A DNA stretch of 56,752 nucleotides, counting the filler, from Jimgerdemannia flammicorona (lineage: Eukaryota): the NCBI GenBank assembly GCA_003990765.1. It is 2 parts of 2 records of this genome, joined end to end, with 100 filler letters (N's around TTAATTAATTAA, not from the genome) between each part and the next. Parts side by side here need not be neighbours in the genome. Positions count along the whole stretch, not along the records: positions 1 to 28,326 come from RBNJ01000566.1; 1 more part is not named here. One strand, given 5' to 3'. Each line of letters begins with the position of its first letter. Position 1 is the first letter of the stretch. This document shows positions 6,073 through 44,443 of this stretch, in pieces. Position numbers and translations under genes: made by a program. The notes beneath the pieces are model-generated. The model ran no database searches and was not told the DNA's origin. It worked only from the letters and a program-made list of their open reading frames with translations.

Positions 6073-8247
6073 ACTTGGTACTTATTGACTGATGATTCAA
6101 GACAAATCTCTCACTTTCAAGCTAAACAACAAACAACCACCACCATCTGAACAACTATACAATCAAGACATCTAGACAAGATAGATATAAGACCACCAGT
6201 ATTTCAAGGTTATACTTCAGATGAGTCAATCATCACTTTCATTAATGATTTCAAGCAATATACTGCTCTAAGGGGCCTGACAGCAAGACAGCAAGTAACT
6301 CTAATGCCCTTCAGTCTCTGAGGACTAGTAAGAGCAGTATTCACAGCTGCAACCTATGTAGAAAATGATGATGATGCTATGCTAGCAGCATAGAAGATCT
6401 GGTTCCAAGCCACATACTATATAGATGAGATCAAGTAGATACTAAAGGATTAGCTCAATATAATATATCAAGGAATAAGTGAGGATCCAAACACATTCTA
6501 TATCAGAATCTAATATCAGATAATTCTTACAGATTATACTGCCACCATCAGGGATCAAGTAGCTGAAGCAACCTTCATAAAAGAAATATACTTAGAGATA
6601 GCTCTGGCTATCCGCTCATCACCAATAGTTCTGGATCTGGTACCGAAGATCACTTATACTCAGTAATACTGGATAGCCAGACACCCACAAGACTATACAA
6701 TGGAGAGAGTCACTAGAGTCAGAATTGAAGCACCCAAGGCAATTAGTGTAATCCCTATCACAGTGATCAATTGAAAAACACCTCAACCAAGAGCTATCAA
6801 GCAACAGAGAAATAGTGAACTCTTGGAGGAACTTGCCAAGAGGTTTGCTAAAATGACAGCCCACCTAGGAGATATGGTGAAGGAAATTAAAGAAAGAAAC
6901 TACCACCCAGTTCAGAAATTCACCACCACCTCAGACAAGAAGAGAGATACCTATTACACCTGTAGAGAGGAGGGCCATTACTCATATGAATTTATGAGCA
7001 AAATCAAGCACAAGGTACAGCCAAGCAATGTAACTCAAAATAAGAAACAAGCCAACATCATTACCTTCAAAAAAATTAAAGAATCAGATAAAGAAGAATG
7101 GGAGGCCCATTCTGCACAAACTACTAAGAAGGATATCCACAAAGAACCCTACAAGAGACCACCAGGGAGACCCAAAAAGAACTCTGTGAAAAAGCAGATA
7201 GAGACTACTATAGAAAGTCCAGATGATGAAATAGATCAAGATATAGAGTTAGAATAGGCTGTTCGAGATATCATCTAAGGAATCACTCCAGCTAGTGAAG
7301 GAGAAAAGAAGAAGAAACTTTGCAAAACCAAGACCTTCAAGTATGATATCTTCAAGGATCTCAGTCAATAAAAGGTCAATGCAATCTTCAGCCAGCTGGT
7401 AGAGATACCTACATTCAGATAGCTAATGAGATATGGGCTTACTGAAACAACCAAGAAGTAAGGATGGAAGATAACTGAGGCCAATAACATTCAAGAAGAC
7501 TCAGGAGAAGAAAGCAAAGATAACTATAAAACCTCTGTCTATGCAACTTGTCAAATTGAGGATAGAGTCTTCAAGGCTATCATTGATACAGGAGTAGGAG
7601 AATGTCTCCTCAGCAAGAAAGCAGCAGACCACCTAGGTTGAGAAGTTGAAGAAGCAACCAAATTGGTATCCAATACAGTAGATGGCATAAGAGCCACACC
7701 TCTGAGAAAGATCCAAGAGGTCCTCATCAAGTTCAGAGGAGCAACCATCCCAGCAGATATAATCATGACTAATGCAACCAACTATGACATCTTTATCAGT
7801 AATTAATAGCTTTACAAAGCAAAGGCAATAATTAACCTAAATGTACAGAAGATATTGATCATCTACTACAGACAGAAGATATGAATTCCCATCAATGTCA
7901 ATAAAGGAGTCCTGTCTGAGATGAAGAAAGAAGAGAGCAAACAAAAGAAAGCCTATATGGTAACAACTCAAAAAAAGAAAAAGAATATTAGATGGATGAG
8001 TAAAGAAGACTGGTGTAAGAAGATTATAGAAAGATATGCACTATAAGGAGTCTGCCTCCATGGGATCCAAATATACTTTATAGAGTATATCAATGAGTGT
8101 TATCAGTACACTGGTATAATCAAGGAGATCTACTACCAAAGTAGAGAAAAGGTGCTTGAGAAACAGATAAGAGAAGAAAAGAAAATGAATGAAGAAGAGG
8201 ATGATGAACCACCAGCCCTCCTCAAAGGTAGTAGTAATGAAGAGGAA

Positions 8248-8660
8248 ATCAAGATCAAGATTGAGAAGATCCATTCTGATGCAGTCTTACCAGAATACAA
8301 GTCAGAAAATGCAGCCAGAATGGATATCACCACAGTGGAGGAAACTGTACTTGAACTACAGACAACCACCCTATTTACAACTGATCTGGAGATGACTATT
8401 CCAAAGGACTATGTTAGAATTCTCAAGATAAGAAACAGCCTGGGTAGAAGGAAAATCACAATTGAAGGAAGAGTCATCGATTCAGATTATATTGGAGAAA
8501 TACTACTTATTGCCAGAAACTATAACCCTATGATTCCATTAATAAAGAAGAAGGACTGACTGATATAGATGTTGATCTTCCCAGTCCTTTAGCCAAGAAT
8601 CATGGAAGTCAAGAAGTTGAAGGAAAAGGAAAGAGGAAGGAAAGAATTCAGATCAATAGG
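8248..8660 (+). pseudogene. dUTPase relic in element B
   Basis: KIHSDAVLP, AARMD (motif I), RNSLG (II), VIDSDYIGEI (III), ERGRKEFRS (V); contains internal stops. Confidence 0.85.
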
Positions 8661-12921: not shown

Positions 12922-15225
12922 CTGAGGTTGAGGTGTGGCCATCTGGCTCCAGTGGAGGGGTCTCAGAGGTAGTTGATTCCTCTTCTTCCTGTTGGGTCTA
13001 GGGCTTTCATGAAGTTGGTGGCATCTTCTGCCCATCTTTGGCAGGTTGCATGTCTGATGAGGGCTAGGATGTCTTCTCTCAAATCGTAGATCTTGAGGGT
13101 TCTTCTTCTGGACTTCTTGGTCTGGATTTTTCGGATCTGGCTTCTATTATCTTCTCTTTTTAAGATATAGATCACAACATTATGACTGAGGTGAATCTTC
13201 TGGTGTCTGCAGTCTCAGCAGTCTGGGTGTCTTTTATGGTTGCAATATCCCTTTGCTCAGAAATGATGTTCCTGGTTGTTGATCTCTTGTTGTCTCAGGA
13301 ATCAGTACCCATCTTGGTCATAAGTTGGTGGAAGAGTAGACAAGGAGTATATTTCTATCTGGGTAAAGAGACCTTGTCCTCTGAATCAGCTTTGCAACTT
13401 GGTGGTAACTTCTTGGAAGATAGTTGACTGTGCAACTGTGTTTGGGGGTTCTGGTTTCTGAGGTCTCTGTCTCTCCTATTGGTCTAGTAGATGGCACTGA
13501 TAGCAGTAGTCTCAGAGAGAGTGGAAGACCATTTGGTGTGGACATCTTCCTAGCCGAAAAGCCTTTTCTTGGTGAGTTTCTTTCTTGGGGATAATGGTAA
13601 TTGTACCGGGTCCTTCTTCTATATTCCAAGGGTCATTGTCTTCAGGTAGTGTCCAGTGAGGGTCATCCCAGGGGATGAGTTCAGGGACTTCTTCCTCTTC
13701 AGGTACTTTTTGTTCAGGAACTTCTTGGTTAGAAACTTCTTCTTCCTCAGATGATTCTTGACCCCAAATTGCTTGTACTCTGCTGCAGGTATTTCCAGGA
13801 TATGTCTACATTTCTTCTTTTTCCTTCTGCACTCTGGGCAGGCTGTACCAGGCGATTTTCTTATTCACATAATCTTAGAGAAATGCTCAGGACACTTGTG
13901 TCTTTTGAGGCATATTGGGCATCCTTTGATTTCTCCTGCAATGGCTCTAATGGTGATAGGGATGGTGTTCTTGGCCCACACATTGTCTTCTGGTCTGTCA
14001 TCCACCAGATTAATTTAGGGATTAAGTCTGAGATCATTTCCATCCTCAGAATCTTCTTCCTCCTCTGTGGTAGATTCTTCACTACTGGCATATTCTTCCT
14101 GGATAGTGACCTTCTTCTTCTTCTTTGATTGCTTATAGCTGGTCACCTTAACTCTGTACTTCTTGCCTTGGTAGTCAAACTTAAGTACTTGTTGGCCAAT
14201 ATCAACAACTGCATTCATTTCCTTCATCTAGTTGGTGCCAAGAATTATGTCATAGGTGACAGCTTCAGTGACAACAGCTTTCAGGATGGAGAACTGAATA
14301 TGTCCTAGAGAGATGGTGATATTTCATACTTCTCCAAGGGGTTGAGTTCGGGCTCCATCTGCTACTATGATGCTGAGGTTGGATGGTCCATCAATGGGCC
14401 ATTGGAGGGTGTCCAGGAATTGTTTGGTAATAACACAGATAGCTGCTCCTATGTCTATGAGGATTTTCGCCTTTTGTCCTCCAATATCTCTATGTAGGTA
14501 GGTGCTGACATGTCTTTCAGCTGCTTGGACAGGGACAGGATCTGGTTCTTGCTGTGGGATTGGAACTTGGCCAGTGCTAGACCTGGTGGTTCTCAGCAAT
14601 TTGTTTTGGACTCTGGCTGGTGTCAGTTGCAGGAACTGCAGGAGAGGGACTTCCATCTTAGCCTCTTGAATCTTCTGCCTGACTTCATTGTAGATGTCTC
14701 TAGGCAAGGTCTTCAGGATGTACTTCTTTTTTGGCTTTGAAGCAGCAGGTTTCCATTCATTTCCTCATCCTCTGGTGGTAGCTCATTTGTCTTAGGGACA
14801 AAAGGTGAAGAAGTCTGGGGAGGTGTTTCTACTGTTCTTCTTCATGTTCTTCATCTTTCTCTTGGATGATTCTTCTTCTGATATTTCTGGATGATCTTTC
14901 TACAGGTCTCTTTCTTTTCTCTGCTAGATAGACTGTTTTCTGAGTAGTAACCTTGATAGGGTAAAAGTCTATATCACTGTAGTTTTCACTATTGCTTGCT
15001 TCCTCGAAATCTTCAACTGGATGAGCTTCAGTCTTTTTGTACTGAGTGTCATTTCTTCAGTTTGATGATTCTGAGTCCCTTCAGTCACTTCTTTTGTTAT
15101 CACATTCAGTGGCATAGTGTCAGAATTATCCACAGTAGAAGCATTGGACTTGGGCTCTGTCTCAGACAGAGTACCTTCTTTATTCTTGCTGATAATTCCT
15201 GTTATCTCTTAGTAGATAACCTTGG

Positions 15226-15459
15226 TCAATATTTTTGCCGTAATGTCGATCTACGCTAGGGAGGCATAACTATACTACTTTTTGCATAATGTCAACTATG
15301 CTATGCTCACATGATGTCAATCTTCGTGATAAAACACCAATAACCCCGTGTCACCGAAATGACCATGCATCACCCCGAAATCCTAGGAAAGAAACCTCAA
15401 ATAAATGATCGATTGTTCTGTATTTGGGTGGAAACACATGGTATAAAAGACCGGCCCAA
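15226..15459 (-). repeat. Ngaro terminal repeat B2
   Basis: 234-bp near-identical copy of 15741-15974. Confidence 0.92.
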
Positions 15460-15493
15460 CCACTATGTATATATATGTAGGGTGAGGTGGGTG

Positions 15494-15737
15494 GTAATGA
15501 AATATGTACGAATGTACGGAAGCACAAAAGTGTAAGTATAAAGCATGTATGAAGTAATGTTGAGTGAATGGTAGATTACATATAGAAGTAATGCGCCTAC
15601 CACGCTAGTACCAAAAAAGGAAAGACTATGCCTGATTTAGACACGCCTTAGACAAACAATGGCGTTGAAACATTTTGGGTGCTATATGCCCAAGACCTTC
15701 CTGCATTCGTTGACCTGTGGTCTCGAGCGAGCCCCCT
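15494..15737 (-). repeat. Ngaro repeat A2
   Basis: 244-bp near-identical copy of 20662-20905. Confidence 0.92.
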
Positions 15738-15740
15738 TAT

Positions 15741-15974
15741 TCAATGTTTTTGTCGTAATGTCGATCTACACTAGGGAGGCGTAACTATACTACTTTTTGC
15801 ATAATGTCAACTACACTATGCTCACGTGATGTCAATCTTCATGATAAAACACCAATAACCCCATATCACCGAAATGACCATGCATCACCCCGAAATCCTA
15901 GGAAAGAAACCTCAAATAAATGATCGATTGTTCTGTATTTGGGTGGAAACACACGGTATAAAAGACCGGCCCAA
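15741..15974 (-). repeat. Ngaro repeat B1
   Basis: Copy of 15226-15459. Confidence 0.92.
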
Positions 15975-16154
15975 ATGTTATATGTAAAATGTGTGGGATG
16001 ATGATGTGTAGCAGTGTGAGTTGGCAGCACCGAAAGAAAGAACTCGGCCCAAATGAAGTAAAAAGGGGGTTATGGATGTGGAAATGTGAGCAGAGTAGAT
16101 GATAGAAAGGCGCCGAAGGCTTAATAGAAAGGCTGCGCCCAATGTCGATGATAT

Positions 16155-16519
16155 GGCTGGTGTCGCAAGACCTGCGGTTAAAACCGAGGGCAGGTGTCAC
16201 CAATCGTGCGATAGCCAAGAAGCTGATTTAATGAGCCCAGCGATCGAGGGATAGAACTGGTGTCGCGAGTTGCACGGGGGTCCGAGTAGGCTGGTGTCGC
16301 AAGCTGTGCAATAACGAAAAGAAGGAGGGCTGGTGTCGCGAGCCGCGCAATGTCGGAAAAGGTTGGTATTGCAAACTACACGGTTGCAAGAGGCTGAGGT
16401 GGGTGGATTAAGGCTGGTGTCGCGAGCCGCGCAGTGATGTAAGGCCGATGAGGAGAGGTAAAGGCTGGTGTCGCGCGCCGCGTGGGACCCGGAATAAGCT
16501 GGTGTCGCGGGCTATGCGG
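16155..16519. repeat. Array of 9-10 ~21-bp repeats (GGCTGGTGTCGCGAGCCGCGC) separated by unique 10-30 bp spacers
   Basis: Copies start at 16155, 16189, (16221 decayed), 16255, 16289, 16328, 16361, 16412, 16463 and 16497. Confidence 0.88.
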
Positions 16520-16543
16520 TAGAAAAAAAGGAACGGAAAATCG

Positions 16544-17551
16544 TTAACCACAAGTAATATGAGTAACAGAACAAGTATTACGAGTTAATGAAGCCCGAAG
16601 GTGGAGAATGCGAGAAATAGGCATATGAATATAGCATTTAAATGCCACGCTCTCCCACTGATCCAACATCTGAATCTCGTAATCGGATAAACTGGCCGCA
16701 GCGGCATCGGATGTTGCACCAATCCGAAAACTATGCCCGGCATAAAGAAGCGGATTCAGACCAATCTGTGGAAGTAACATGCGAAGATGACTAACGAGAT
16801 AGGCCCAAGAGAACGATCGATTCGCGGAACACCAGAACAGAGGGGTGTCGGGTGGGGCTGGGTGCGCCAGGTAAAGAAGGCGGAGTAAGGATACAATGCA
16901 TGGTGCAGCGGGATCCATTTTGGTGATAAAAAGTGTTGTACCCTGGTGAAATGGGTCTGTTTTAGAGGCCAGCAGGGTGAGCGTAATATGGGTGGGGTCG
17001 GCAATGCTAGGTTGAAAAACCACAGAGCCGCGGGACAGCTGGGAAACAGGATCGAAAGACCTGTCCCACGTAAATTCGCCGGAGCGAAGAAAGCCGACAT
17101 ATGCAAGCGACATCACTGTCGCAAGATGCAGATTGTCATAATCAGATAGCTGAAGCAAACTGATAAGACTGCGAAGAATACCGAGCATGATAGGAAGGCG
17201 AGGTCGAGTTGGGCATATGCCTAGCCACCGCTTCATGCCACGCATCACTTGGGGAAGTTGGTAAAGACTGATGAACGGATTGGCAAAACCGGAGTCGATG
17301 TGTAGAGAATGAATGGCTGAGAGGTAACGTTTGATTGTGGATGGTTGAAGCCGTCGCAAGGCCAAGCTACAGACCCACCGCATTAGCACCAGTTCGGATG
17401 CAGGCAAAGGCCCGCCGGAGGCATGATTACTGCCATGGAGATTGCAGAATTGGAGGAAGCTGCGTTGTCCCAAAGAGTATGAGCAGTGCATTGATTTTGC
17501 CAGTCCGAACCACAAAAAGAAGGCAATGACAGGTGGAAGCACGGAATGCAA
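16544..17551 (-). CDS. Tyrosine recombinase (DIRS/Ngaro integrase); open frame but mutated
   Basis: GFLRSGEF (catalytic R), SKTDPF (K), GHSFRIG (HxxR), W...Y in DQWESVAFKCYI; N-terminal SAM-like region STIKRYLSAI. Confidence 0.9.
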   Translation of the reverse strand: MHSVLPPVIAFFLWFGLAKSMHCSYSLGQRSFLQFCNLHGSNHASGGPLPASELVLMRWVCSLALRRLQPSTIKRYLSAIHSLHIDSGFANPFISLYQLPQVMRGMKRWLGICPTRPRLPIMLGILRSLISLLQLSDYDNLHLATVMSLAYVGFLRSGEFTWDRSFDPVSQLSRGSVVFQPSIADPTHITLTLLASKTDPFHQGTTLFITKMDPAAPCIVSLLRLLYLAHPAPPDTPLFWCSANRSFSWAYLVSHLRMLLPQIGLNPLLYAGHSFRIGATSDAAAASLSDYEIQMLDQWESVAFKCYIHMPISRILHLRASLTRNTCSVTHITCG

Positions 17552-19137
17552 ATGATACCAATCGCGGTCGGGAGCGTCTGAGCGTAAGGGGCAAGACGAC
17601 GGAAACGAGGAAGATCAGCGTGGGATAAAGCATCAGCAATGCCATTATTGGACATTGAGATGAATATGGCGCAAAGTTGAAAAGCGTGATGCGCCATTTG
17701 AAAATAGAGCTGGCAGAGAAGTTCCAGCAGAAGAGGGTTGCGTGAAGAGCCCGAGTTGATAATAGCGACGATCGCCTGATTATCAGAATGAAGCAATATA
17801 TGGTGAAAATGCCATTGAGTGCCCCAGGTAGCAGCAGCAGCGACCATGGCGTAAAGTTCCTTGAACTGAATATCACGCGAGGCTATATCGGGAGGCCAGG
17901 GAGTGGAAAACCATTCGCTATTGAAATGTGCACCAAAGCCTTGGATCCCGCTGGCGTCCATCCATAATTGTCCATCAGGCTCGTAGAACCATGCCACCGG
18001 ATGTATAACAGAAATACCATTCCAGTGGGGTAGGAATTCAAGCCATCAATGAATGTCGGCGTAGAATTCCTCATTCAGTGAGATATGGAATGAGGCATTG
18101 CTGGAAAGAAGGTCAATAAACCGCCGCAGGAATGGGCAGCCTGGCGGAATGATTTTACAGGCAAATGCCAAGGAACTAATAAGAGACTGCAGTTGAGGGC
18201 GTGTACATAACGTGCGCAATAGCCACTGCTGAAGAGTGGCGAGCAACGTGTCAAGCTTGCCAAGAGGCAGGCGGGCTTCCATAGCCATTGTATCCAATTC
18301 GATGCCCAGAAAGACAAGTGATGTTGTTGGGCCTTCGACCTTGCACTCTTGAATTGACCAGCCAAGATGACGACAGATAGCAAGAAGTAAACATAGGTCG
18401 GAGAGAGCAGACGGCCAGAGCGGCGGCGAAACAAGAAGAAAATCGTTGACGTAGTGGATGAGTGCGCATATGTTATGACGGTGGGCGATCCATGCAAGAA
18501 GTTCCGCGAAAAGGTTGAAAAGAAATGGTGACAAGGATGTGCCAAAAGGAGCAAACTGATCAAAATAAAACTGCCCTGACCACTTGAAACCCAGCAACTC
18601 CCAATCTGTAGGATGGATGAGAATATGACGATATGCATCGGTGAGGTCGACCTTCAATAGAAGACATCCCTGGCCAAAACGACGAACCAAGTCCAAAGCC
18701 TCGTCAAACTTAATGTAAGAGAGCTGGAAGGTGTCGGCATCTATGCCGGCATTCACTGAATCGCCGTTACAGGGCCAAGAAAGGTCGTGAATATGATGCC
18801 ATGCGCTATTAGAATTCTTCTTCACGACAGTGCTAAGAGGAGATGAGCGAAAGCATTTGAATGGAGGGGATGAGAATGGGCCACAAATTCTACTGGCGGC
18901 GACTTCTCGCTCAATGTCAGACATGATCGCTTCCGGGTGGTCAAGAGCGGAGCGATGATTATAGGACAGCAGGCGCCGACGAGGCCCATTTAAGCTGAGA
19001 AGAGTGCCTTGAGTAATAGTGGCAATGGCAGCCTGAGCTACCTGTAGGGCAGGATACAACTGGAGCTCACGTACCCACACAACAGGGCGAAGAGCAGAAG
19101 AAGGAAGAGGAAAACGACATAGAATGTCTTGAGCCAC
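17383..19137 (-). pseudogene. Ngaro reverse transcriptase-RNase H ORF, inactivated
   Basis: KVDLTDAYRH, APFG, HYVNDFL (YxDD changed to YVND), FLGIELD; in-frame TGA at 18046-18048; RNase H DASG...ELYA...SDN...NGIADALS in the same frame. Confidence 0.9.
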
Positions 19138-19224
19138 TTTGTTGAGAGGGGTGGTAAATAGGCGACGGAGTAGGGTATTTGGAGCGGCCAGGGATATGTG
19201 TAAAGAATAAACAGGGGCGAGTTC

Positions 19225-20655
19225 CTAGGGGCAAGACAATGGATTGTAGGAGCATCGATACCATGGATGATCACCATTGCAGCAAGAACAGGAATGCACA
19301 TAAGGGCATCCTTTTCTATTGCACCCAGGATCCTTTATGGGTGATCCATCAAATAGAACGCCGTTGTATGCCTGACAAGTAGACCGTTGAGAGGCTTTCT
19401 TGGTAGATGGAGCGGAGGAGCCATCAGTAAGACATAGCCCCTGTTGTACATTGCGAGACTTGAAGGGCTTAAGCAGATTAGATGTAGAGGTTGGAGTTCA
19501 TAGACATTGATGTAGACTAAGGATCATAAAGAGGTCTGGGTCGCGCCGGGCCCAGTGCTCGCACTATACCAAAGAAACACCATCGTTCGCGATCTCCGCC
19601 AGTCATTTTGTGTGAAAGGAGACATGATAATCGAGAAGCGCAGACCAATACGACGACTTTGATAGTAAAATAAAATCCGCGGCATATGAAAAGAATGGAG
19701 TAGGATCGGTGAGGCCTGGGTATGCGTCATGAAGAACGCTGAAATACGTAAGCAGGGCGGCGAGGAAAGCAGGGATGTCTGGAAGATCTTTGATAAGGGA
19801 TGGCAGCTTTCGAAGAATGATCTGGGCACCCAATTCGTCAAACGTTTCGATGAATTGAGCGTCAGGAAGACCACCGATAGAAATGACATTCTGCTCTAAG
19901 AAACGGCCGAGCGACATGGCGGTGAACGAATTGTCGATGACCGTGGCCAACAGCCATTAATTAACATGGGTGTATTTTAAAGAGAGATTGACGTCTCGGA
20001 CAATGGTATGGGCAGAGACAACAGAAGGAGGTATAGGGATAGACTCACCCTGGGGATTACTGGCAGAGCCATGAATGCTGGTGGACCAAACTGAAGGGAT
20101 AGTCGGTAAGAGCTAGGATGAGGATGGGGATGCGAGAACTGCCGAAAGAGAAGCAGTAGCACGATCAATAAAGGCTTGATCGATGATGGGAGACACGTCC
20201 TGACCAGAAACGGCAGGAACTGCACTAGCCAGTGCCACTGAAGATACGATATCGGGGTGAGAGCGTAAGAGCTGAAAAAGTTCATCGAACTGACGGTCTT
20301 GCACAGATGCATGCTCTTGGAGCTGAGCAACGCTGGCTTTGATGGAAACATCAGAGGCCGGTGTGCTGAAAAAAGCTGGTCCGGCCGCCGTAGTGCTAGC
20401 GGGAGCCTTGGATGCAGCACGAGCTGATAGATGCATGATTCGGCGGGGTGCAGAAGTAGAGTGATCAGGGAGGGTGGCGAGATAATCCATGAGGATAGCA
20501 ACATCGGGGTTCTCGCTATCAGATTCTAGGTCGTCTTGCAGAAAACGGAGCACACGCTCGATGAAATTAACGTCCGAGCCCAGGTCGTGTTGGCCCTTTG
20601 ACGTATGGGAAGGGTCGTATCGACACAAAAGGCAGGAATTTGCGGAGAGGACCAT
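19225..20655 (-). pseudogene. Ngaro ORF1 (gag-like) with C-terminal Cys/His fingers
   Basis: ORFs 20113-20655 and 19603-19950 share one frame broken by stops; it ends CQAYNG...GCNRKGCPYVHSCSCCNGDHPWYRC. Confidence 0.75.
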
Positions 20656-20661
20656 GGTAAT

Positions 20662-20905
20662 GTGATGAAATGCGTACGAATGTACGGAAGTGCAAAAGCG
20701 TAAGTGTAAAGCGCATACGAAGTAATGTTGGGTGAATGGTAGATTATATATAGAAGTAATGTGCCTACTGCACTAGTACCAAAAAAGGAAAGACTATGCC
20801 TGATTTAGACATGCCTTAGACAAACAACGGCGTTGAAACATTTTGGATGCTATATGCCTAAGACCTTCCTGCATTCATTGACCTGTGGTCTCGAGCGTGC
20901 CCCCT
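20662..20905 (-). repeat. Ngaro terminal repeat A1
   Basis: Copy of 15494-15737, immediately upstream of the ORF1 ATG. Confidence 0.92.
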
Positions 20906-22240
20906 CATCTCCTCTGTGGTGGGTATCCTCTGTTGTCTTGATAGCTCTGATTTTTGTATATAGTGAGTTTTTCAATCTGTCCAACCAATCAGTCCAACTT
21001 TGAGCTGAGGTCTTGGATTTGCTTCTGTCCTTCTTTCCTTCCTTGGCTGGCCTTCTTTCTTCAGATCTTTCTTGTCCTTGAAGGAGTCCTTGCAGGGTTT
21101 TGATAAGGATATCTTCTTTATCTTCTTTCTTGTCATGATCACTCCAGGTAGTTCCTTGTCTGACATCATAGAATCCTTGGGCTGCATCTACTTGCTCTTC
21201 AAACCTTCTGATGCCTAGAGTGAGGATATGCTGGGCAATGTTCAGGGGAATTCCATTCATAAAGGTATTGGACCTATGATGTCCTGGTTGGTGGCATTAA
21301 ACCTGGCAGCATACATTCTCTTCTGAATTCTTGTGAAGAAGGCTCTGAGTGATTCTTCAAGATTCATCTTCATCCCTAAGATAGATTCTTGAGCCTTGTG
21401 GTAGGTTTCATTTCCTGCATACTTTTTAATGAGCCAGTGGACCATGACCTCATATTTGAGCTCATAAGACATTGCTGCTTGTATCTGTCTCACCAGTTCT
21501 GAATCTGGGTCATTAGTTGTTCAGCAGAAAATTCCTCTGGCTGGTTCTCTGAGCTGAGCCTTGAAGGTGGTGATTTTTCTTTTATCTGAGGGATTCCTCA
21601 GGGCTGCAATTCCTTCAATTCCATCAAGGAATTCTGTGGGGTCTTTCTCTGGGGATCATGCAAAGGTTGGCAATGAGGTGGCCATTTCATTATCACTTTC
21701 TTCAGATTCTGGTTCTGGTTCAGACTCTGATTCTGATTCGCTTTCTGAGTGTCACTGGAGATGGAGGTGCTTGGGTATTCTGAGGATGGTGTTCTGGACC
21801 TTGGACGAAGTGGAATGAGCCTAGATATTCTTATAGGAGCTACTTCCAACTCTGTAAGGGCTTATGGTAAAGATTCTATTAGTGAGATTGATGGAACTAG
21901 TATGGGGTGTCTGGCTGTAAGATCTCAGACTTGTGTAATAAGATCTTCTAGTTCTTGTACAAGTTCTTCAAAATCTCCAGCAGGGCCACCTATGTTGTCT
22001 GATTGGTCTTATTAGGGATTTTGGGCTGTACTATCTTCTAGTTTGGGTTGGGATCCTTCAGATGCCTGGTAGTTAGCAAGTCTTAATGTGATTACCTCTC
22101 TTCCTGTCTAGATGTGGTAATAACTAGTTCTTCTGTAGTGGCAGAGATTGGTGTTGTATCAAATGTATCCAGTTTGACTGTGGGTTCTTATGAGCTGAAA
22201 AGTTATGTCAATTTGAAATATTCCCAGTTGAGTCCCTAAA

Positions 22241-23599
22241 TGTAATATGCCTGGCTCAATAGAGGCAAATTACAAGATTGGAGGTTGATATAGTTTGGCT
22301 TGAGCCCCCAGTTACTTTGTTAAAAGCAACAAAATGTTCTAAGATTCCTGAGGTCTGTGGTATTTAGTAGTATAATATTCAAAACTGGATATCTGCGAGC
22401 AATTTCCTTATTGGGATGGTTCTCTGGGTGTAGCAGCGATTTGTATGTCTTTTCCTTCTTGGGTCAATCTGGGAATTGGTAGGATTTCATGTATAGCATG
22501 ACAATCTCTGTGTGTGACAGTCTGGCAATTTTAGCAGTTCTCCTTCTTGAGTGATGGGCAATCTCTATGTAGTGCAACAATCTCCAAAAGTATGTGATTT
22601 CTGGGTAATGATCTCTTGTGTAGCACAGTGGATTCCTTATGTGATTTGGGTGGATAACTTGATTTGGCACAGATTCTCTTAACTTGGTGGGCTTCTGGGA
22701 ATAATGACTTGAATGGTACAGATAATTTGAATAACTGGGAATAATGCTGGTGGAAGGTTCTTCTGTATCAGGCTCACTGATAACAAACAACTCAGATGTC
22801 ATGGAAACTCAGATGGTATGAATCAGGTTCTTCTGGGAATGCAGATAATTCAGAAATAATGGCTTCAACTGGGAAATATGCTGGTGGCTTCTGGGAAAGG
22901 GTCTCTTGGCAAAGTTGCATCAAAGACTGGCTTTGTTTGCACAAATGAATTACTGTGAAGTTTTATCAGAAACTGGCTTGAGCAAGGCAGCTTCCTCTTG
23001 GATAGCAGAAACTTGGGTTCTTTGGGCTTATCTGGCAAGCATACCAATAACATTAATTCCAAAGGTGGTGAAGTTCTTTCTTGAACTTAGGCAGCAAACT
23101 CGAATTCTTCAGGCTTAGTCTAGCAAGTATACCAAAAGTGTGGCTTATTCCTTAAGTGGCAGGTTACTCAAATGGCAGCGAAGTTCTTCTTTGAACTTAG
23201 TGGCAAATCTTCAGCTTTATATTAGAAAGTGAACTGGAGTTGAAAGAAATACTTTGCTCACAATCTCCTAGCAGTGGCTGTAGAGTTCCTCTTGAAGTGT
23301 GGTAGGCAGACTTGACTTATGCTTTGAATTCAATTCAGACTGAGGTTTATTCACTCTTGTCTCTAGGGTAATTTATATAGCTGTGGTTGCTATCTGGTTA
23401 CTATATTGCTAATTATAGATTACTATCTATGGCAAGTGTGTAGGTTTTATATAGGTGTGCAGATCTTGCACAGATATACCTTATCTGGTAGTCTGGCTAT
23501 TTATATAGCTTTCTATAGCAATGGTTGCTGGTTACTATGCTATATGTTTACATCATCTGGCTAAGTTATAATCTGAGTGGTACATTTTGGTTTGTCACA
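22241..23599 (-). repeat. 5' LTR of element C (~1.36 kb)
   Basis: TG...CA ends, AATAAA signal, adjacent PBS, and homology to 40960-41723. Confidence 0.75.
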
Positions 23600-28326: not shown

Positions 28327-28426
28327 NNNNNNNNNNNNNNNNNNNNNNNNNNNNNNNNNNNNNNNNNNNNTTAATTAATTAANNNNNNNNNNNNNNNNNN
28401 NNNNNNNNNNNNNNNNNNNNNNNNNN
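28327..28426. other. Artificial scaffold linker (44 N + TTAATTAATTAA + 44 N)
   Basis: Exactly 100 bp, with a six-frame stop cassette in the centre. Confidence 0.95.
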
Positions 28427-28447: not shown

Positions 28448-29010
28448 TGGTTCTCTACCATTAAGCCTCTATCAATGAGAATCCAGCAATAATAAGTCTC
28501 TATTAACAATTCTCTGCCATTGAGCCCCTATTGACCATTCTCTACCATTGAGCCTTTATTGACTATTCTCTGCCATCAAGTCTCCATTAATGAGAATTCA
28601 GCAGTGATAAGTTTCCATTGACCATTCTCTATTATTGAGCCTCCATCAATAAGAATCCAGCAGCAATGAGTCTCCATCAATGGTTCTCTACCATCAAGCT
28701 TCCATTAAGCATTCTCTGCCATCAAGTCTCCATTAACTATTCTCTACCATTAAGCCTCCATTAACTGTTCTCTGCCATCAAGCCTCTATTGACCATTCTC
28801 TGCCATTAAGCCTCTATTGATCAGTCTCTGCTATCAAGCCTCCATCAACTGTTCTCTACCATTGAGACTCTATTGATCATCTCTATCATTGAGCCTCCAT
28901 TAAAGAGAATTTAGCAGTAATAATAGTTCTCTGCCATCTGCTATAGAGTCTCTATAAATGAGAATTTAGCAGTAATGAATCTTTATTGACCATTCTCTAC
29001 TATTAAGCCT
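28448..29010 (+). repeat. Tandem array of 28/48-bp units (TTCTCTGCCATTGAGCCTCCATTGACCA), forward orientation
   Basis: Read directly from the sequence. Confidence 0.9.
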
Positions 29011-29051
29011 TTATAATATATATATATATATAATTATAAAAATATATTTAC

Positions 29052-30363
29052 CTGTTAAAGTATATCTTCACCAGTCTAATATCCTTTATGATTTTTGCCA
29101 ACTTAAAATAAAACACATGCCTCTTTTTGAATATTGTTCTTTAGATATAGCTAGATATCCAATAGTGTCTAGAAGAAATTTTCTTATCATTAAACAAGCA
29201 TCTCTACTTTTTTTCCTCAAAGATTGTTCCTCTTTTGGTCTTTATCTATATCTAAGATCATTATTAGTATTGAAAACAGCTTCATCATGAGTAACTAAGA
29301 TATGTTGTTCTCTAAATAAAATGTTATATAGTAATGGTTGAAGATCTTGATCATATTTAAAAATTAATAATTTCCATCTAGCTAGTTGTTATAAGAATTA
29401 TTGACAATGAGCTTTAATATTTTCATATTCATGACTATCAACATAAATTCCTTTTCTGTATTTGTTGTAAATATATTCCATTTTGACCATTCATCTTCTT
29501 ATAGTTTCTTCATAAATAGTTATCACTTTTGTTGATAGATTAAGTGCTGGAAAAATTCTATATCCAAATGTTTTTTAAGTATTCTAGAAGTTGCTGTAAA
29601 TTTGTTATTCTGTAAAATAAGTTGTAACTACCTATTGAATATTTATATCTTGAAGAAGACATTTAACTTTTGAATGTTTTCCTTATTTGATAGTAGGAAT
29701 AAGTTGTTCATCAATCTGATCCTGTCTCCATTTCTACAAAAGTTTTAAATAATAATATCCATAATTTATACTTTCTGTAATAAGATTACTGATCTCAGAA
29801 TTACTCTAATTGTTATTCCTAAGTATCAAATACTGTGAGATATTGTGAAGTCACAAAATCATAGACAGAGAGAGATCTTTTGTTGTTTTTATAACGTTTT
29901 GTAGTATTTCAATAAGAATATCATCATTGTTATCATTATCACTATCTTCTTCTTCATAGTTATCAATTTCTTTCATCTTCATCTTTAATATTATTATCTT
30001 TATCTTCATCATCCTCATCCTCAGTATCATTTTCACTATTGTCATCTTGCTTCTCTTCCTCATCTTTATTTTTATCTTTTTCTTCTTTATCATCCTGGTT
30101 TCTATATATAATAAATTAATTATATTATTAGATTATATATACATATATATTATTTTTTAATTTCTATATAGATTAAAAATTTACTTTATATACTTTAGTA
30201 TGTTTTGGTTACTACTATATTCAGAAGGTAGTGGTAATAGTAATGGTGAAGCTTGGGGAGTTGAAAGCAAAGAAATTATCTTATATATATCCTCAACATT
30301 TCTTTGTATTTTTTGATATTATATCTCTCTCAGCCAAAGTGCTTGTTTTGTCAATCATCCCAT
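29052..30363 (-). pseudogene. Truncated DDE-type transposase relic (possibly IS630-Tc1-mariner related)
   Basis: Minus-strand translation through stops gives GKHSK, ETIRR*M, RKGIYVDSHE, HILVTHDEAVFNTND and LRKKSR, matching my recollection of fungal KGxYxDGHER...THDES transposases. Confidence 0.6.
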
Positions 30364-30419
30364 TGTTATACTATAATTATAATCTAATATAATATAAAGC
30401 AAGATTAATATAAAAGGCT

Positions 30420-31636
30420 TATAGAATTCTCATTAATAGAGACTCAATAATAGAGAACTATTGATGGAGGCTTGATAATAGAGAGTGGTCAATAGAGACT
30501 CAATAGTAGAGAACTATCAATAGAGACTCAATGGCAGAGAACTATCAATAGAGTCCCAATAGCAGAGAACAGTCAATAGAGGCTCAATAGTAGAGAACTA
30601 TTATTACTACTGAATTCTCATTGATAGAGACATGATAGTAGAGAACTGTTATTACTGCTGAATTCCCATTGATAGAGGCTCAATGAGAGAGAATAGTCAA
30701 TGAAAGCTTGATGGCAGAGAACTATTTTTACTGCTAAATTCTCATTGATAGAGGTTTGATGGCAGAGAATGATTAATAGAGGCTTGATAGTAGAGAACAG
30801 TCAATGGAGGCTTGATGACAGAGAATGGTCAATAGAGACTTGATGGCAGAGAGTAGAGAATAGTTGATAGAGGCTTAATGGTAGAGAACTGTTATTATTA
30901 CTGAATTCTCATTGATGGAGGCTCAATGGCAGAGAACTGTTATTACTGCTGAATTTTCATTAATGGAGGCTCAATAGTAGAGAACTGTCATTACTGCTGA
31001 ATTCTCATTAATGGAGGCTCAATAGCAGAGAACTGTCATTACTGCTGAATTTCCATTATTGGAGGCTCAATGATATAGAATGGTCAATAGAGGATTAATG
31101 GCAGAGAACTGTCATCACTGCTGAATTCTCATTAATGGAGACTTAATGGCAGAGAATGATCAATGGAGAATAGATGGTAGAGAACTGTCATTACTGATAA
31201 ATTCTCATTAATGGAGGCTCAATAGTAGAGAACTATCATTACTACTGAATTCTTTTAGATAGAGGCTCAATAACAGAGAACCATTATTGCTGCTGAATTC
31301 TTATTAATAGAGGCTTGATGGTAGAGAACTGTTATTGCTGTTAAATTCTCATTGATAGAGGCTCAATGGCAGAGAACCCTCATTACTACTGAATTCTCAT
31401 TGATAGAGACTTGATGGTAGAGAACTATTGATGGAGGCTCAATAGTAGAGAATGGTCAATATAGGCTTAATGGCAGAAAATGGTTGATAGAGGCTTGATA
31501 GTAGAGAACTATAAATAGAGACTTATTACTGCTAAATTCTCATTAATAGAGACTTGAAAGCAGAGAATAGTCAATAGAGACTCAATGGCAGAGAATAGTT
31601 GATAGAGGCTTAATGTCAGAGAACTATTGATAGAGA
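30420..31636 (-). repeat. Same 28/48-bp tandem array, reverse orientation
   Basis: GAGAATGGTCAATAGAGGCTTGATGGCA and GAGAACTGTCATTACTGCTGAATTCTCATTAATGGAGGCTCAATAGCA units. Confidence 0.9.
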
Positions 31637-31884
31637 ATCATTACTTGTTATAGTGAAATCCTCCTTACTAATAGTGTTAATATAGTAGCATAATAAGCAT
31701 AGTGTCATTAAGCTGATATACATATATATATATAAGATTTTATTTTTATATATTTTATTTGAATTATAGATAAATAGGTTTGTAGAAAGAAGAGGATATA
31801 TAGTTAATATTAATAAATTTTGAAACAAATCAATATTTCTAAGTTTGATAAGACAGATAAGTATTAGTAAGTCTCTATCAATAA

Positions 31885-32760
31885 TTCTCCCCATCAACCA
31901 TTCTCTGTCATTGAGTCTCCATTAATGAGAATTCAGCAGTGATGAGCCTCTATTGACTACTCTCTGCTATTGAACCTCTATTAATGAGAATTCAGCAGCA
32001 ATGAGCCTCCATTGACTATTCTCTGCCATTAAGCCTCCATTGACCATTCTCTACTATCAATTCTCTATCAACCATTCTGCCATCGAGCCTCCATCAATAA
32101 GAATTCAGTAGTGATAATAGTTCTCTACCATTGAGCCTCTATCAATCATTCTCTACCATTGAGCCTCTATCAATGAGAATTCAGCAATAATGATAGTTCT
32201 CTACCATCAAGCCTCTATTGACCATTCTCTGCCATTGAGTCTCCATCTAAGAATTTAGTAGCAATGAGTCTCTATTGATTGTTCTCTGCTATTGAGCCTT
32301 CATTGACCATTCTCTGCCATCAAGCCTCTATCAATGAGAATTCAGCAGTGATAACAGTTCTCTACCATTGAGCCTCTATCAATAAGAATTCAGTAGTGAT
32401 AATAGTTCTCTACCATTGAGCCTCTATCAATATAATGAGAATTCAGCAGTTATAAGCCTCTATCAATAGTTCTTAGAGGCACATTGCTGCTGAATTTTCA
32501 TTGATAGAGACTTAATAGCAGAAAACTATTAATGGAGGCTCAATGACAGAAAACAGTCAATAGAGACTCATTGCTGCTGAATTTTCATTGATAGAGGCTT
32601 AATAGTAGAAAACTATTGATAGAGGCTTAATGGCAGAGAATAGTTAATAGAGGCTCATTGCTGTTGAATTCTTATTGATAGACATCAGTAAGCCTCTATT
32701 GATGGTTCTCTGCTAGTAGTTGTCAACAATGAGAATTTAGCTTCCATTGATAAGCCTATA
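31885..32760. repeat. Second inverted pair of the same array (forward 31885-32473, reverse 32484-32681)
   Basis: Orientation switches at ~32480. Confidence 0.85.
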
Positions 32761-42333: not shown

Positions 42334-44401
42334 CTACTTGTAAGTAATGAGGTACGTCGGATAGAATCGCCCGGGCGAGTACACAATGTATATTTTGCTT
42401 CCGCCAGTGGTTCCTAAAAAAGAAAGTGCGGATTTAGACAAGAAATATTCACGTTTCCAATTGGAATTACAAAGTCTGCAAAGAGAATTCAAAAGAACTA
42501 CCACGCCCGTTGTGGACGAACGGGGTTCAGTATGCAATTCCCACCAGGGCTGGCCCAAATCCTTACCGTTGATCGAGTCATGTCGCTCGTTCTTGAACTT
42601 TCCGGTTTGCTTCGCTTTTGCTGGAGGTAAAGTGATCGAATTGTTTGACGGTAGATTTATTGAATCACCGGTGATAACCTATTATTGTAGTTTGGGAAAA
42701 TTTGAGTATGTTTACCATTTGATTTCACCAGAGTCATGTTGATACGGTGTGGGGCATAAATACTCACATCGGCTAAGAAGAACTGCCTAGTCCCCCCCTT
42801 CACGAATGCATAGTCATTGGAGTAAGATGCGTTCACGGCAAAGTAGCAGCCTCTGCCCCACATACCTAGTCCATACAGAAAAGATTGCCTTTAGTAGAGC
42901 AAAGGGTTTCGAAAAGGCGAGCGACGGTTTGAGACCGGATTTATGAATAAAAATTATCTCACCCTGTGCCGAGAATCTCGGGTCAAACCCTTCCTCACTC
43001 TCGTAGATGTCACTGGGCAGTGTGTTCCTCGAGCCATGGAAGAGAGATATAACGTTTATCTGGTTCATGTTCTTCTTCGATAACTGCCGATGATTGTGCT
43101 GGTACGTGAACCACAAGTGTCGATTCTGCAAAGGGCGCAAAAATTGTCAGTTGGTGGACAATTCCTACATTAAATGAAATAATTGAAACAAATTTATCAA
43201 CGATACGAACTTGCACACGCTCGATTTTCTGGATAGAGGCATGCGGCAATGTCTGGTGTACGCGCGCGACCACTGTTTTCCACTCCTTACTCGTGGCGCT
43301 CAGCGCCACCAATACGCAGTTCACATTCTCATCAAACTTGTCCCAGTCCTTCGGTACGTCATTTTCGATGTTTGCCGATTTTTCAAAGGCCCACTTATAC
43401 ACCTCCGCCCGCATGGTGTCCACAAACCCCTCGTGACCGGTCAGTTTGATCGTATTCTCCTTGGAATCGAGCTCCACGTCCACGTACAGACGTTCGGCGA
43501 TCATCCGAACAGCCGCGTCACGCTCCGCCGGGTTAATTTTCTCCCAGAGCCCCATCATGGGAATAAACTCTGTCTTTAGATTTGCGAGCGATTCCAGTTC
43601 ATTGGCTGCCACTGCGGTGTCGACACATGTTCCCATGATCACAATTTCGACGAGCTCTTTCCAATATTTGTAGTCGACGAGGGTGGGATTCTGAATACCA
43701 GAACAAAAATTCCGCATTAGTTTGTCATCGTGTCGGAAGGTTGCAATTTGTATCGTGTAACTACAAACCTTCTCGTTATTCAATGCAACTTGTGGGCTCG
43801 GCAGATCTGCTATGGGCATTTTTGGAATGGGGACATCTTTGCGCATAATGGACCGCTGGTAATTGGTATTTGTATTCCTCTGAAAGTGGCCCTGTTTACC
43901 GAACAGGATCTCGTAGGTAACACCAGATTTGACTCCTGCAACATCGCCGACAATTTTCACTGCTGAAACCATCGGGATTGAGCCCCCCAAGGGACGGCTT
44001 CCTATTCGAATCGAATACAAACTCGGACCTCGCCGTCGCCTCGAGATCGAGGTTGTGGTGGATAGAGACGCGGACACGGGTGGAGCGACGGCAGCTGCTT
44101 GGCTTCCCGATGACGTACCGTTGCCTGGTCGTACGATCGAACTCGGGTTTGGAAGAGGTGAGGCGAGGATCGGGGCGGGGACCGAGGCGGGGACCGGGGC
44201 GGGGACCGGGGCGGGGACCGGGGCGGGGACCGAGGCGGGGACCGGGGCGGGGACCGTGGCACACCACTTGTTGTAGGCGTTCTCGATTGCAATGTTTTGG
44301 TCACGATCATACATAATCCATTGCTCTCCTTTGTAGTGCTGAGGGCCGGAAAGTTAAAGATTTATTTTATTTTTATTTTTTATAAAATAGGTTAATCAGA
44401 G

Positions 44402-44443
<42 letters not shown>

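What the first reader, a model, noticed from the sequence alone, without database searches (positions are those of the whole stretch)
16155..16519. CRISPR-like repeat/unique-spacer array downstream of the recombinase in an RT+YR element
Seen: 9-10 copies of a ~21-bp GC-rich motif (sense strand GCGCGGCTCGCGACACCAGCC, with central palindrome TCGCGA). Periods are 34, 32, 34, 34, 39, 33, 51, 51 and 34 bp, with unrelated spacers. The array starts ~25 bp after the YR stop, and the periods are not all multiples of 3, so it is non-coding. Simple slippage would homogenise the spacers too, and the split-repeat replication model does not require this array. Inference: it could be YR or Gag binding sites, a structured or processed RNA, or recombination sites that captured short sequences. 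It is not a true CRISPR (eukaryote, no cas genes, short spacers).
Basis: partly seen in the sequence, partly recalled or inferred. Interest (0 to 1): 0.72.

Follow-up and report, generated by a model that had tools for sequence, protein, structure and literature searches.

The report
Folding-motif array in Ngaro retrotransposon tail
A fungal jumping gene carries ten copies of a short, long-conserved motif behind its recombinase gene; it is not CRISPR-like, but it may fold into tiny RNA knots that the element's own proteins read.

Summary
The array is real: ten 24-nt units with exactly the periods reported, 24 nt behind the stop of a tyrosine recombinase, in the 3' non-coding part of a dead split-direct-repeat (Ngaro-type) retrotransposon (15226-20908, minus strand). 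It is not CRISPR-like. The 30 aligned copies share the same spacers, one tested spacer occurs only in element copies, and copy number changes only by whole-unit loss or duplication. In the sister family the spacers resemble each other, so the array arose by tandem duplication. The motif itself looks selected. It survives in 1-4 copies in lineages whose recombinase synonymous sites are near saturation, and its outer arms show compensatory base changes (p about 0.01, few events). On the RNA strand each unit fits a compact H-type pseudoknot (post hoc; folding not shown). Other lineages in this genome carry different motifs at the same place. Best reading: a lineage-specific, single-strand cis signal (packaging or reverse transcription) multiplied by template switching. 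Rivals: a DNA-binding-site array, or a neutral minisatellite. The scan noted this array before on another copy in this genome (e1-7553564) and called it a by-product.

The parts
20662..20908 (-). Split direct repeat A1; 5' end of the element at 20908
   Evidence: 247 nt, 90% to A2; empty-site joint 15224/15225 to 20909 in run X1
19225..20660 (-). gag-like region, broken into several frames; Cys/His-rich C-terminal piece at 19497-19225
   Evidence: ORF pieces; no Pfam hit; identity as gag inferred from position
18046..19224 (-). Reverse transcriptase frame, ending in an in-frame stop before the RNase H part
   Evidence: PF00078, E 9.7e-10
17383..18045 (-). RNase H-like frame, overlapping the start of the YR frame
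   Evidence: PF13456, E 0.0029, below the curated cut-off
16544..17614 (-). Tyrosine recombinase frame (open, 356 aa stop to stop)
   Evidence: 292 homologues at E<=1e-30, several with PF00589 or named integrase/recombinase from basidiomycetes; conserved R117, K158, R237, Y268 columns
16496..16519 (-). Unit 1 (outer arms AGCC/AGCT)
16462..16485 (-). Unit 2
16411..16434 (-). Unit 3 (majority type)
16360..16383 (-). Unit 4 (outer arms AGTT/AACC, one compensatory pair); CpG-decayed in this copy
16327..16350 (-). Unit 5
16288..16311 (-). Unit 6
16254..16277 (-). Unit 7 (outer arms AACT/AGTT, two compensatory pairs)
16220..16243 (-). Unit 8, degenerate: inner palindrome lost, outer arms still pair
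16188..16211 (-). Unit 9 (outer arms pair poorly)
16154..16177 (-). Unit 10 (its orthologue in the sister family has a C-G pair for the T-A pair)
15735..15974 (-). Split direct repeat B1
   Evidence: 240 nt, 95% to B2
15494..15740 (-). Split direct repeat A2; B1|A2 junction at 15741/15740
15226..15459 (-). Split direct repeat B2; 3' end of the element at 15226

Best explanation
The array is a multiplied cis-acting signal in the 3' untranslated part of the RNA of a Ngaro-type retrotransposon. Shown: the position between the YR stop and repeat B1; vertical inheritance of a 23-24-nt motif across one recombinase clade (1-4 copies in most sublineages, 8-12 here and in the sister family); gain and loss of whole units with breakpoints in the motif; base-pair covariation of the outer arms. 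Inferred: units multiply by template switching during reverse transcription; each unit folds on the single strand, with the inner CGCG/CGCG helix and the outer RGCT/AGCY helix interleaved as a compact H-type pseudoknot (stems 4 and 3-4 bp, loops 1-2, 0-1 and 5-6 nt), or as one of the two hairpins; the element's own Cys/His-rich Gag-like protein or its RT binds them, giving lineage-specific packaging or cis preference in a genome with many co-resident Ngaro families. The window's copy is dead and decaying at CpG.
For: Motif 16 of 18 identical (1 transversion) between this family and family B, where YR fourfold sites differ by 0.42 transversions and little else in the region aligns. A decay-aware profile gave 99 sense, 0 antisense and 2 shuffled hits in 79 regions; 22 hits lie outside the two families closest to the profile (one locus counted twice), none in the 36 regions labelled as other motif types. 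Every hit in a locus that is in the tree falls in one YR clade (SH-aLRT 99, quick tree; L248, 4 hits, is not in the tree). Paralogous motif identity 0.75 and 0.72 against spacers 0.39 and 0.44. Outer helix: 6 compensatory cells of 56 against 2.5 shuffled, p 0.011, over all 14 arm types. 8 of 10 units fit H-type geometry on the sense strand and 1 of 10 on the antisense strand; 0.3-0.5% of shuffles of the majority unit do. The dimensions are like those of solved short pseudoknots, e.g. PLRV 4/2/3/1/9 and TYMV 23 nt (PMC2873773 Table 1). Whole-unit deletions of 34, 51 and 39 nt. All 36 exact motif matches in the genome lie on contigs with element copies, at the arrays. Distant fungal Ngaro-like elements carry another conserved, covarying structure right behind the YR stop.
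Against: The covariation rests on about five events, all double transitions. The paired-cell count alone is not significant (44 of 56 against 41.4, p 0.09). In the tool test the +1 slid control scores close (0.373 against 0.418), and one of 11 rows was added because it showed a compensatory change. The inner helix shows no real covariation (one cell, in a decayed copy). The pseudoknot was recognised post hoc. No nested fold beats shuffles: z 1.73 for the array, z -0.2 to 0.9 for units. For 6 of 7 units the nested fold is more stable on the antisense strand. In the sister family only 5 of 11 reconstructed units pass the geometry test (heavy decay). The other two motif types were not shown to form the same knot. 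No Rfam match. No expression or binding data.
Confidence: 0.43

Rival explanations
1. Neutral by-product: a degenerate minisatellite made by strand transfer in a hypervariable 3' region, as in Ogre/Tat elements. The motif stays alike because it is the only remaining homology at which switching and conversion occur; at most one ancestral copy has a function.
For: Spacers are duplication products in the sister family; whole-unit gains and losses; family B (17 copies) spread with only two units; most distant elements have no array; such arrays are described for Ogre/Tat 3' UTRs (PMC7004042 passages); an earlier scan note on another copy read it so.
Against: Homogenisation inside an array cannot keep a one- or two-copy motif intact across saturated synonymous divergence. 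The motif is the CpG-richest and so most mutable part (40 CpG in 216 nt against 9 in 150), yet the best kept. Compensatory changes.
Confidence: 0.23
2. Array of double-stranded DNA sites (CGCG-N5-CGCG dyads in a CpG island) for a host transcription or chromatin factor, working as an enhancer or insulator upstream of B1-A2, or upstream of A in the circular intermediate; analogous to Sirevirus repeated motifs and the gypsy insulator.
For: Dyad symmetry and CpG density; constant motif with variable spacers is the pattern of the 12 Su(Hw) sites (PMC2374998 passages) and of Sirevirus RM boxes (PMC2829016 passages); a TATA-like stretch lies in A1 (about 20752-20744) and A2 (about 15584-15575) (read); a CGCG-N5-CGCG stretch also appears in the reconstruction of a second motif lineage.
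Against: Compensatory changes are not expected for a duplex site; the dyad spacing is 6 nt in family B; the full motif was not found outside the element (36 of 36), though a host factor could read a shorter core.
Confidence: 0.22
3. Hairpins on the single-stranded antisense cDNA that load the YR or stall or prime DNA synthesis, as integron attC sites do for their recombinase (analogy recalled).
For: DIRS-1 cDNA is single-stranded and antisense (PMC7192593 passages); the covariation is strand-neutral; nested folds are slightly more stable on the antisense strand.
Against: As DNA only the 4-bp inner hairpin forms, -4.4 to -4.9 kcal/mol on either strand. The element ends are precise and lie 900 nt away, and no copy examined begins or ends in the array in a way that marks it as an integration site (30 aligned).
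Confidence: 0.1
4. CRISPR-like memory: recombination sites that captured short foreign sequences.
For: Only the look of the array: constant repeat, unlike spacers.
Against: Same spacers in the 30 aligned copies; orthologous spacers in the sister family, 16 differences in 99 sites; 24 of 24 matches of a spacer 16-mer lie in element copies; spacers of 8-27 nt; no Cas family among 22 of the 25 ORFs of 150 aa or more that were scanned.
Confidence: 0.02

Closest known systems
Ngaro retrotransposons (DIRS order; PMC3783388 abstract, introduction and passages; PMC8547959 and PMC13465315 passages)
   Same: A1-[gag, RT/RH, YR]-B1-A2-B2 layout, no methyltransferase hit, precise ends without target duplication.
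   Different: A ten-unit motif array between YR and B1. The words tandem, array, promoter and UTR do not occur in PMC3783388; Ngaro plus pseudoknot gave 0 papers.
Hypervariable tandem repeats in 3' UTRs of Ogre/Tat LTR retrotransposons (PMC7004042 passages)
   Same: Same position, family-specific monomers, proposed origin by strand transfer.
   Different: Here the motif is kept while spacers diverge, persists at low copy number in deep lineages, and covaries; the host is a YR element.
Sirevirus repeated motifs (PMC2829016 passages) and gypsy insulator (PMC2374998 passages)
   Same: Many copies of a short CG-rich or constant motif with variable spacers in a non-coding part of a retroelement.
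   Different: Those lie in the LTR, upstream of env or in the 5' UTR and are read (or thought to be read) as duplex DNA; no binding factor is known here.
Compact H-type pseudoknots of luteoviruses and the TYMV 3' region (PMC2873773 Table 1)
   Same: Stem and loop lengths in the same range, short loop 1, longer loop 3.
   Different: Those are single, solved structures with a frameshift or tRNA-like role; here ten tandem predicted knots in a 3' UTR, loop 3 shorter (5-6 against 7-9 nt in luteoviruses), folding untested.

Membership tests
Ngaro retrotransposon | Split direct repeats A1-ORFs-B1-A2-B2 | tested here: met
   27 of 30 copies show both the B1|A2 junction and a B2 end
Ngaro retrotransposon | RT/RNase H followed by an overlapping YR frame | tested here: met
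Ngaro retrotransposon | No methyltransferase domain (unlike DIRS and PAT) | tested here: met
   No such Pfam hit in the element's frames; a decayed domain could be missed
Ngaro retrotransposon | gag ORF upstream of pol | tested here: inconclusive
   Broken frames with a Cys/His-rich end, no Pfam hit
Ngaro retrotransposon | Integration without target-site duplication (feature recalled) | tested here: met
   Empty site joins 15224/15225 to 20909; 30 of 30 last B ends read TTGA followed by different flanks
Ngaro retrotransposon | RT/RH phylogeny inside the Ngaro clade | not tested
   No reference Ngaro, PAT or DIRS sequences were fetched; the tree is YR only
CRISPR array | Spacers acquired from outside, varying between copies (features recalled) | tested here: not met
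CRISPR array | Uniform spacer length and near-identical repeats | tested here: not met
   Spacers 8-27 nt, repeats 75% alike; no Rfam CRISPR match
CRISPR array | cas genes | tested here: not met
   None in 22 of 25 long ORFs of the window; the genome was not searched for cas
Minisatellite / 3' UTR tandem array | Head-to-tail units alike over their whole length | tested here: inconclusive
   No TRF hit; spacers unrelated here (p 0.058) but related in the sister family (p 0.0003)
Minisatellite / 3' UTR tandem array | Copy number varies by whole units | tested here: met
H-type RNA pseudoknot | Interleaved stems with feasible loop lengths | tested here: met
   8 of 10 units, sense strand; post hoc, own geometric rule
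H-type RNA pseudoknot | Covariation in both stems | tested here: inconclusive
   Outer stem yes, weakly; inner stem nearly invariant
H-type RNA pseudoknot | Both stems form at once in solution | not testable with these tools
   ViennaRNA folds nested structures only

The most novel reading that the evidence does not exclude
Ngaro retrotransposons mark their own RNA with lineage-specific folded tags between the YR stop and repeat B1; in this lineage the tag is a minimal 22-23-nt H-type pseudoknot, amplified to a tandem array of ten, that the element's Gag-like protein or RT recognises. This would be the first defined packaging or priming signal for a split-repeat YR retrotransposon, and a natural multi-pseudoknot array.
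Probability: 0.25. Interest if true: 0.75.

Novelty: new variant of a known kind. Interest (0 to 1): 0.47.

Why it matters
How YR retrotransposons select, prime and copy their RNA is open: for DIRS-1 the primer of reverse transcription is not known (PMC7192593 passage). A short motif that is inherited with one recombinase clade, differs between clades in the same genome, and has natural compensatory variants is a ready-made test substrate. If the array is only a by-product, it extends the 3' UTR repeat phenomenon of Ogre/Tat elements to Ngaro elements and is of modest interest.

Tried and rejected
Coding reading: a 104-aa frame (16511-16197) repeats a short peptide, but most periods are not multiples of 3 and it has no Pfam hit. 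Global fold of the array: no better than shuffles on either strand. Rfam: 2 chance-level matches in 14800-21200, none on the array; 0 matches at gathering score in 20 loci; a ribozyme reading got no support. A mis-spaced pattern gave 9 matches against 14 control, uninformative. Viral contigs: no YR relative, no motif match. Metagenome relatives: the motif pattern matched 11 of 179 loci, all this family; 3 of 60 regions long enough had five or more repeats (19 of 79 loci were left out as too short or not listed). Sequencing runs: no RNA holder listed; three runs with shares 0.06-0.07; contigs of X1 cover the array in part, X2 and X3 do not, so nothing follows on expression. RNAalifold did not recover the long helix of the distant group-X structure. 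The careful tree did not finish; the quick tree is used, and the second motif type is not one clade in it. The 76-bp array of Chlamydomonas TOC1 is recalled and was not confirmed by search. The original Goodwin and Poulter description of Ngaro was not read, and no supplements were opened; Repbase-type annotations could already mention such repeats. No structure prediction, complex prediction or covariance model was run.

Full report
Observation. Ten 24-nt units run from 16519 to 16154 on the minus strand with periods 34, 51, 51, 33, 39, 34, 34, 32 and 34. They start 24 nt behind the stop of a 356-codon frame. A 15-nt pattern has 10 matches in the window, 7 of them in the array, against 0.22 expected. 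Tandem Repeats Finder does not list the region. The unit reads C-CGCG-Y-RGCT-CGCG-ACACC-AGCY.

The host element. Direct repeats of 247 and 240 nt give the order A1 - ORFs - B1 - A2 - B2. The frames are a broken gag-like region, RT (PF00078), an RNase H-like part and a tyrosine recombinase whose best homologues are 40-44% identical, some named from basidiomycetes. This is the layout given for Ngaro elements (PMC3783388, abstract, introduction and passages; PMC8547959 and PMC13465315, passages). Contigs of run X1 join 15224/15225 to 20909, so the element spans 15226-20908 without a target duplication. In 30 of 30 copies the last B end reads TTGA and is followed by a different flank. The element sits inside an LTR retrotransposon (aspartyl-protease hit at 14764-14327, below the curated cut-off). 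The copy is dead: RT ends in a stop, and across copies CpG sites have changed at 20-27% against 2% elsewhere, alike in motif and spacer. An earlier scan note calls the host Endogonales; I did not check that.

No spacer capture. The genome holds 40 matches to the region (a lower bound). I aligned the best 30: all have the same spacers in the same order. 27 of 30 have no gap of 3 nt or more in the array; one lost 3 nt, two lost whole units of 34 and 51 nt, and a further copy (L241) lost 39 nt, with breakpoints in the motif. A 16-mer from spacer 2 has 24 exact matches, all in element copies. In the older sister family (8 copies aligned) spacers are orthologous: 16 differences in 99 sites and 7 gap columns. 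Unit number there varies between copies. In the sister family 7 of 45 spacer pairs are at least 70% alike (0.44 expected, p 0.0003); in this family 0 of 36 are (mean identity p 0.058). The array therefore grew by duplication, and the spacers drifted apart.

The motif looks selected. Paralogous units are 75% alike in the motif and 39% in the spacers, although the motif holds 40 CpG in 216 nt against 9 in 150. I fetched 80 further stretches chosen from the 150 YR matches listed. I then scanned 79 downstream regions with a decay-aware profile built from this family: 99 sense hits, 0 antisense, 2 in shuffles. 77 hits are in this family and its sister and are partly circular. 22 lie in more distant sublineages (9 of 17 family-B copies, L059, L212, L235, L231/L255 which are one locus, L218, L227, L248). 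None lies in the 36 regions that I labelled by eye as other motif types. In a quick YR tree of 73 rows the motif-bearing loci fall in one clade (SH-aLRT 99); L248 had too short a match to enter, and the careful search did not finish. Between this family and family B, fourfold YR sites differ by 0.42 transversions, near saturation, while the last 18 nt of the motif are 16 identical with one transversion. Against the sister family, transversions are 2 of 192 in motifs, 4 of 99 in spacers and 0.051 at fourfold sites. Two other motif types fill the same position in other lineages: one with a GCAGG...CACGACCAC core, one with CGAC-CGCTC-GTCG (read by eye from decayed copies). All 36 exact matches of the motif in the genome lie at the arrays of element copies.

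Signs of base pairing. The unit has two overlapping inverted repeats, inner CGCG/CGCG and outer RGCT/AGCY. Over all 14 arm types from 23 units of three families, 6 of 56 cells are compensatory against 2.5 in shuffles (p 0.011); paired cells are 44 against 41.4 (p 0.09). On real copies of the ten units plus one sister unit, which I added because it showed such a change, all 4 outer pairs have a two-sided change (2 of 500 shuffles), but the +1 slid control scores 0.373 against 0.418. The inner helix is nearly invariant. Read 5' to 3' on the element's sense strand, the helices interleave as an H-type pseudoknot. 8 of 10 units pass a simple geometric rule on the sense strand and 1 of 10 on the other, and 0.3-0.5% of shuffles of the majority unit reach 8 pairs. 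In the decayed sister family only 5 of 11 reconstructed units pass, and in family B 1 of 2. Solved short pseudoknots have similar dimensions (PMC2873773, Table 1 passage). Stacking of the two helices sums to -11 to -17 kcal/mol before loop costs, against -4.5 to -7.7 for the best nested fold; the loop cost was not computed, so the knot is possible, not shown. Nested folds do not beat shuffles, and are a little stronger on the antisense strand. Rfam has nothing for the array.

Wider relatives. Of 79 metagenome loci, 60 had enough sequence behind the YR. Three show five or more short repeats and none shows this motif, so arrays are not a general Ngaro feature. About 29 of the 60 carry instead one conserved structured-looking stretch right behind the stop. 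In 17 of them a 15-pair helix has 15 two-sided changes against 5.9 shuffled (0 of 500; related sequences inflate this). This agrees with the idea that this region is read as folded RNA, and with two unchecked or partly checked scan notes, which are not independent support.

Mechanism. I think it most likely (0.43) that the motif is a single-strand signal in the 3' UTR, multiplied by template switching during reverse transcription and read by the element's own Gag-like protein or RT for packaging or cis preference. Position, inheritance, unit turnover and weak covariation are shown; folding, binding and role are inferred. Rivals: a neutral by-product like the 3' UTR repeats of Ogre/Tat elements (PMC7004042 passages; 0.23); duplex sites like Sirevirus repeated motifs or the gypsy insulator (PMC2829016 and PMC2374998 passages; 0.22); hairpins on the antisense cDNA, which is single-stranded in DIRS-1 (PMC7192593 passages; 0.10); spacer capture (0.02).

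Novelty. The element is an ordinary Ngaro-type retrotransposon, and repeat arrays in retroelement UTRs are known. I found no paper on such a motif in Ngaro elements: searches (0 papers for Ngaro with pseudoknot; 2 papers, titles and abstract starts unrelated), and word searches within PMC3783388, PMC13465315, PMC6681497 and PMC8547959. The library lacks most subscription papers and I read no supplements. The scan saw this array before on another copy and judged it a by-product (e1-7553564); the deep conservation and covariation tests here shift the odds toward a selected motif without settling it. Verdict: new variant of a known kind, interest 0.47.

Noticed in passing
L100:4880-5010, L116:3513-3643, L119:4883-5013 and about 26 more metagenome loci: Conserved structured-looking stretch right behind the YR stop of distant fungal Ngaro-like elements: an invariant 7-bp helix and a 15-pair helix with covariation (15 two-sided cells against 5.9). 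It can be drawn as a pseudoknot or as a long rod; no Rfam match in the three loci scanned.
   Followed up: partly
L073, L074, L083, L084, L089, L090, L092, L099, L104, behind the YR stop: A second group with another conserved hairpin followed by an AAAGAG stretch; in L099 the stretch recurs downstream, as a terminal repeat would.
   Followed up: no
L052, L053, L055, L056, L061, L069 (G000), behind the YR stop: Another Ngaro lineage has a higher-order repeat of about 108 nt, three times over, with a hairpin whose loop side varies between units while the stem is kept.
   Followed up: partly
L050 (G000:C2774), L066 (C653), L070 (C3101): Short young derivatives holding a partial, apparently duplicated YR end plus array and repeats, some in inverted or tandem arrangement; possible non-autonomous elements.
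   Followed up: no
window 16050-16035 and 15974: The first letters of repeat B (TTTGGGCCG) also occur about 75 nt upstream of B1, and B starts with nearly the same letters in most families seen.
   Followed up: no
window about 13000-15225 and 20909-23000: The Ngaro copy is inserted in a decayed LTR retrotransposon on the minus strand (aspartyl protease hit 14764-14327); empty sites exist in run X1.
   Followed up: partly
window 28327-28426: Scaffold join: two N runs around a short linker; only 1-28326 lies on contig C566, so the two halves of the window need not be adjacent.
   Followed up: yes
window 28451-32682: AT-rich satellite with 28-, 48-, 56- and 76-bp periods in both orientations.
   Followed up: no
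window 43010-48468 (minus): WWE plus macro-domain frames and two ricin-type lectin frames side by side.
   Followed up: no
window 50659-51597 and 8047-8559: Ankyrin-repeat frame with 102-bp period; a dUTPase hit in a probable retroelement remnant.
   Followed up: no
L086, 208-376 nt behind the YR stop: Nine copies of a 21-bp tandem repeat in a distant element; absent from the close relative L078, so possibly flanking DNA.
   Followed up: no
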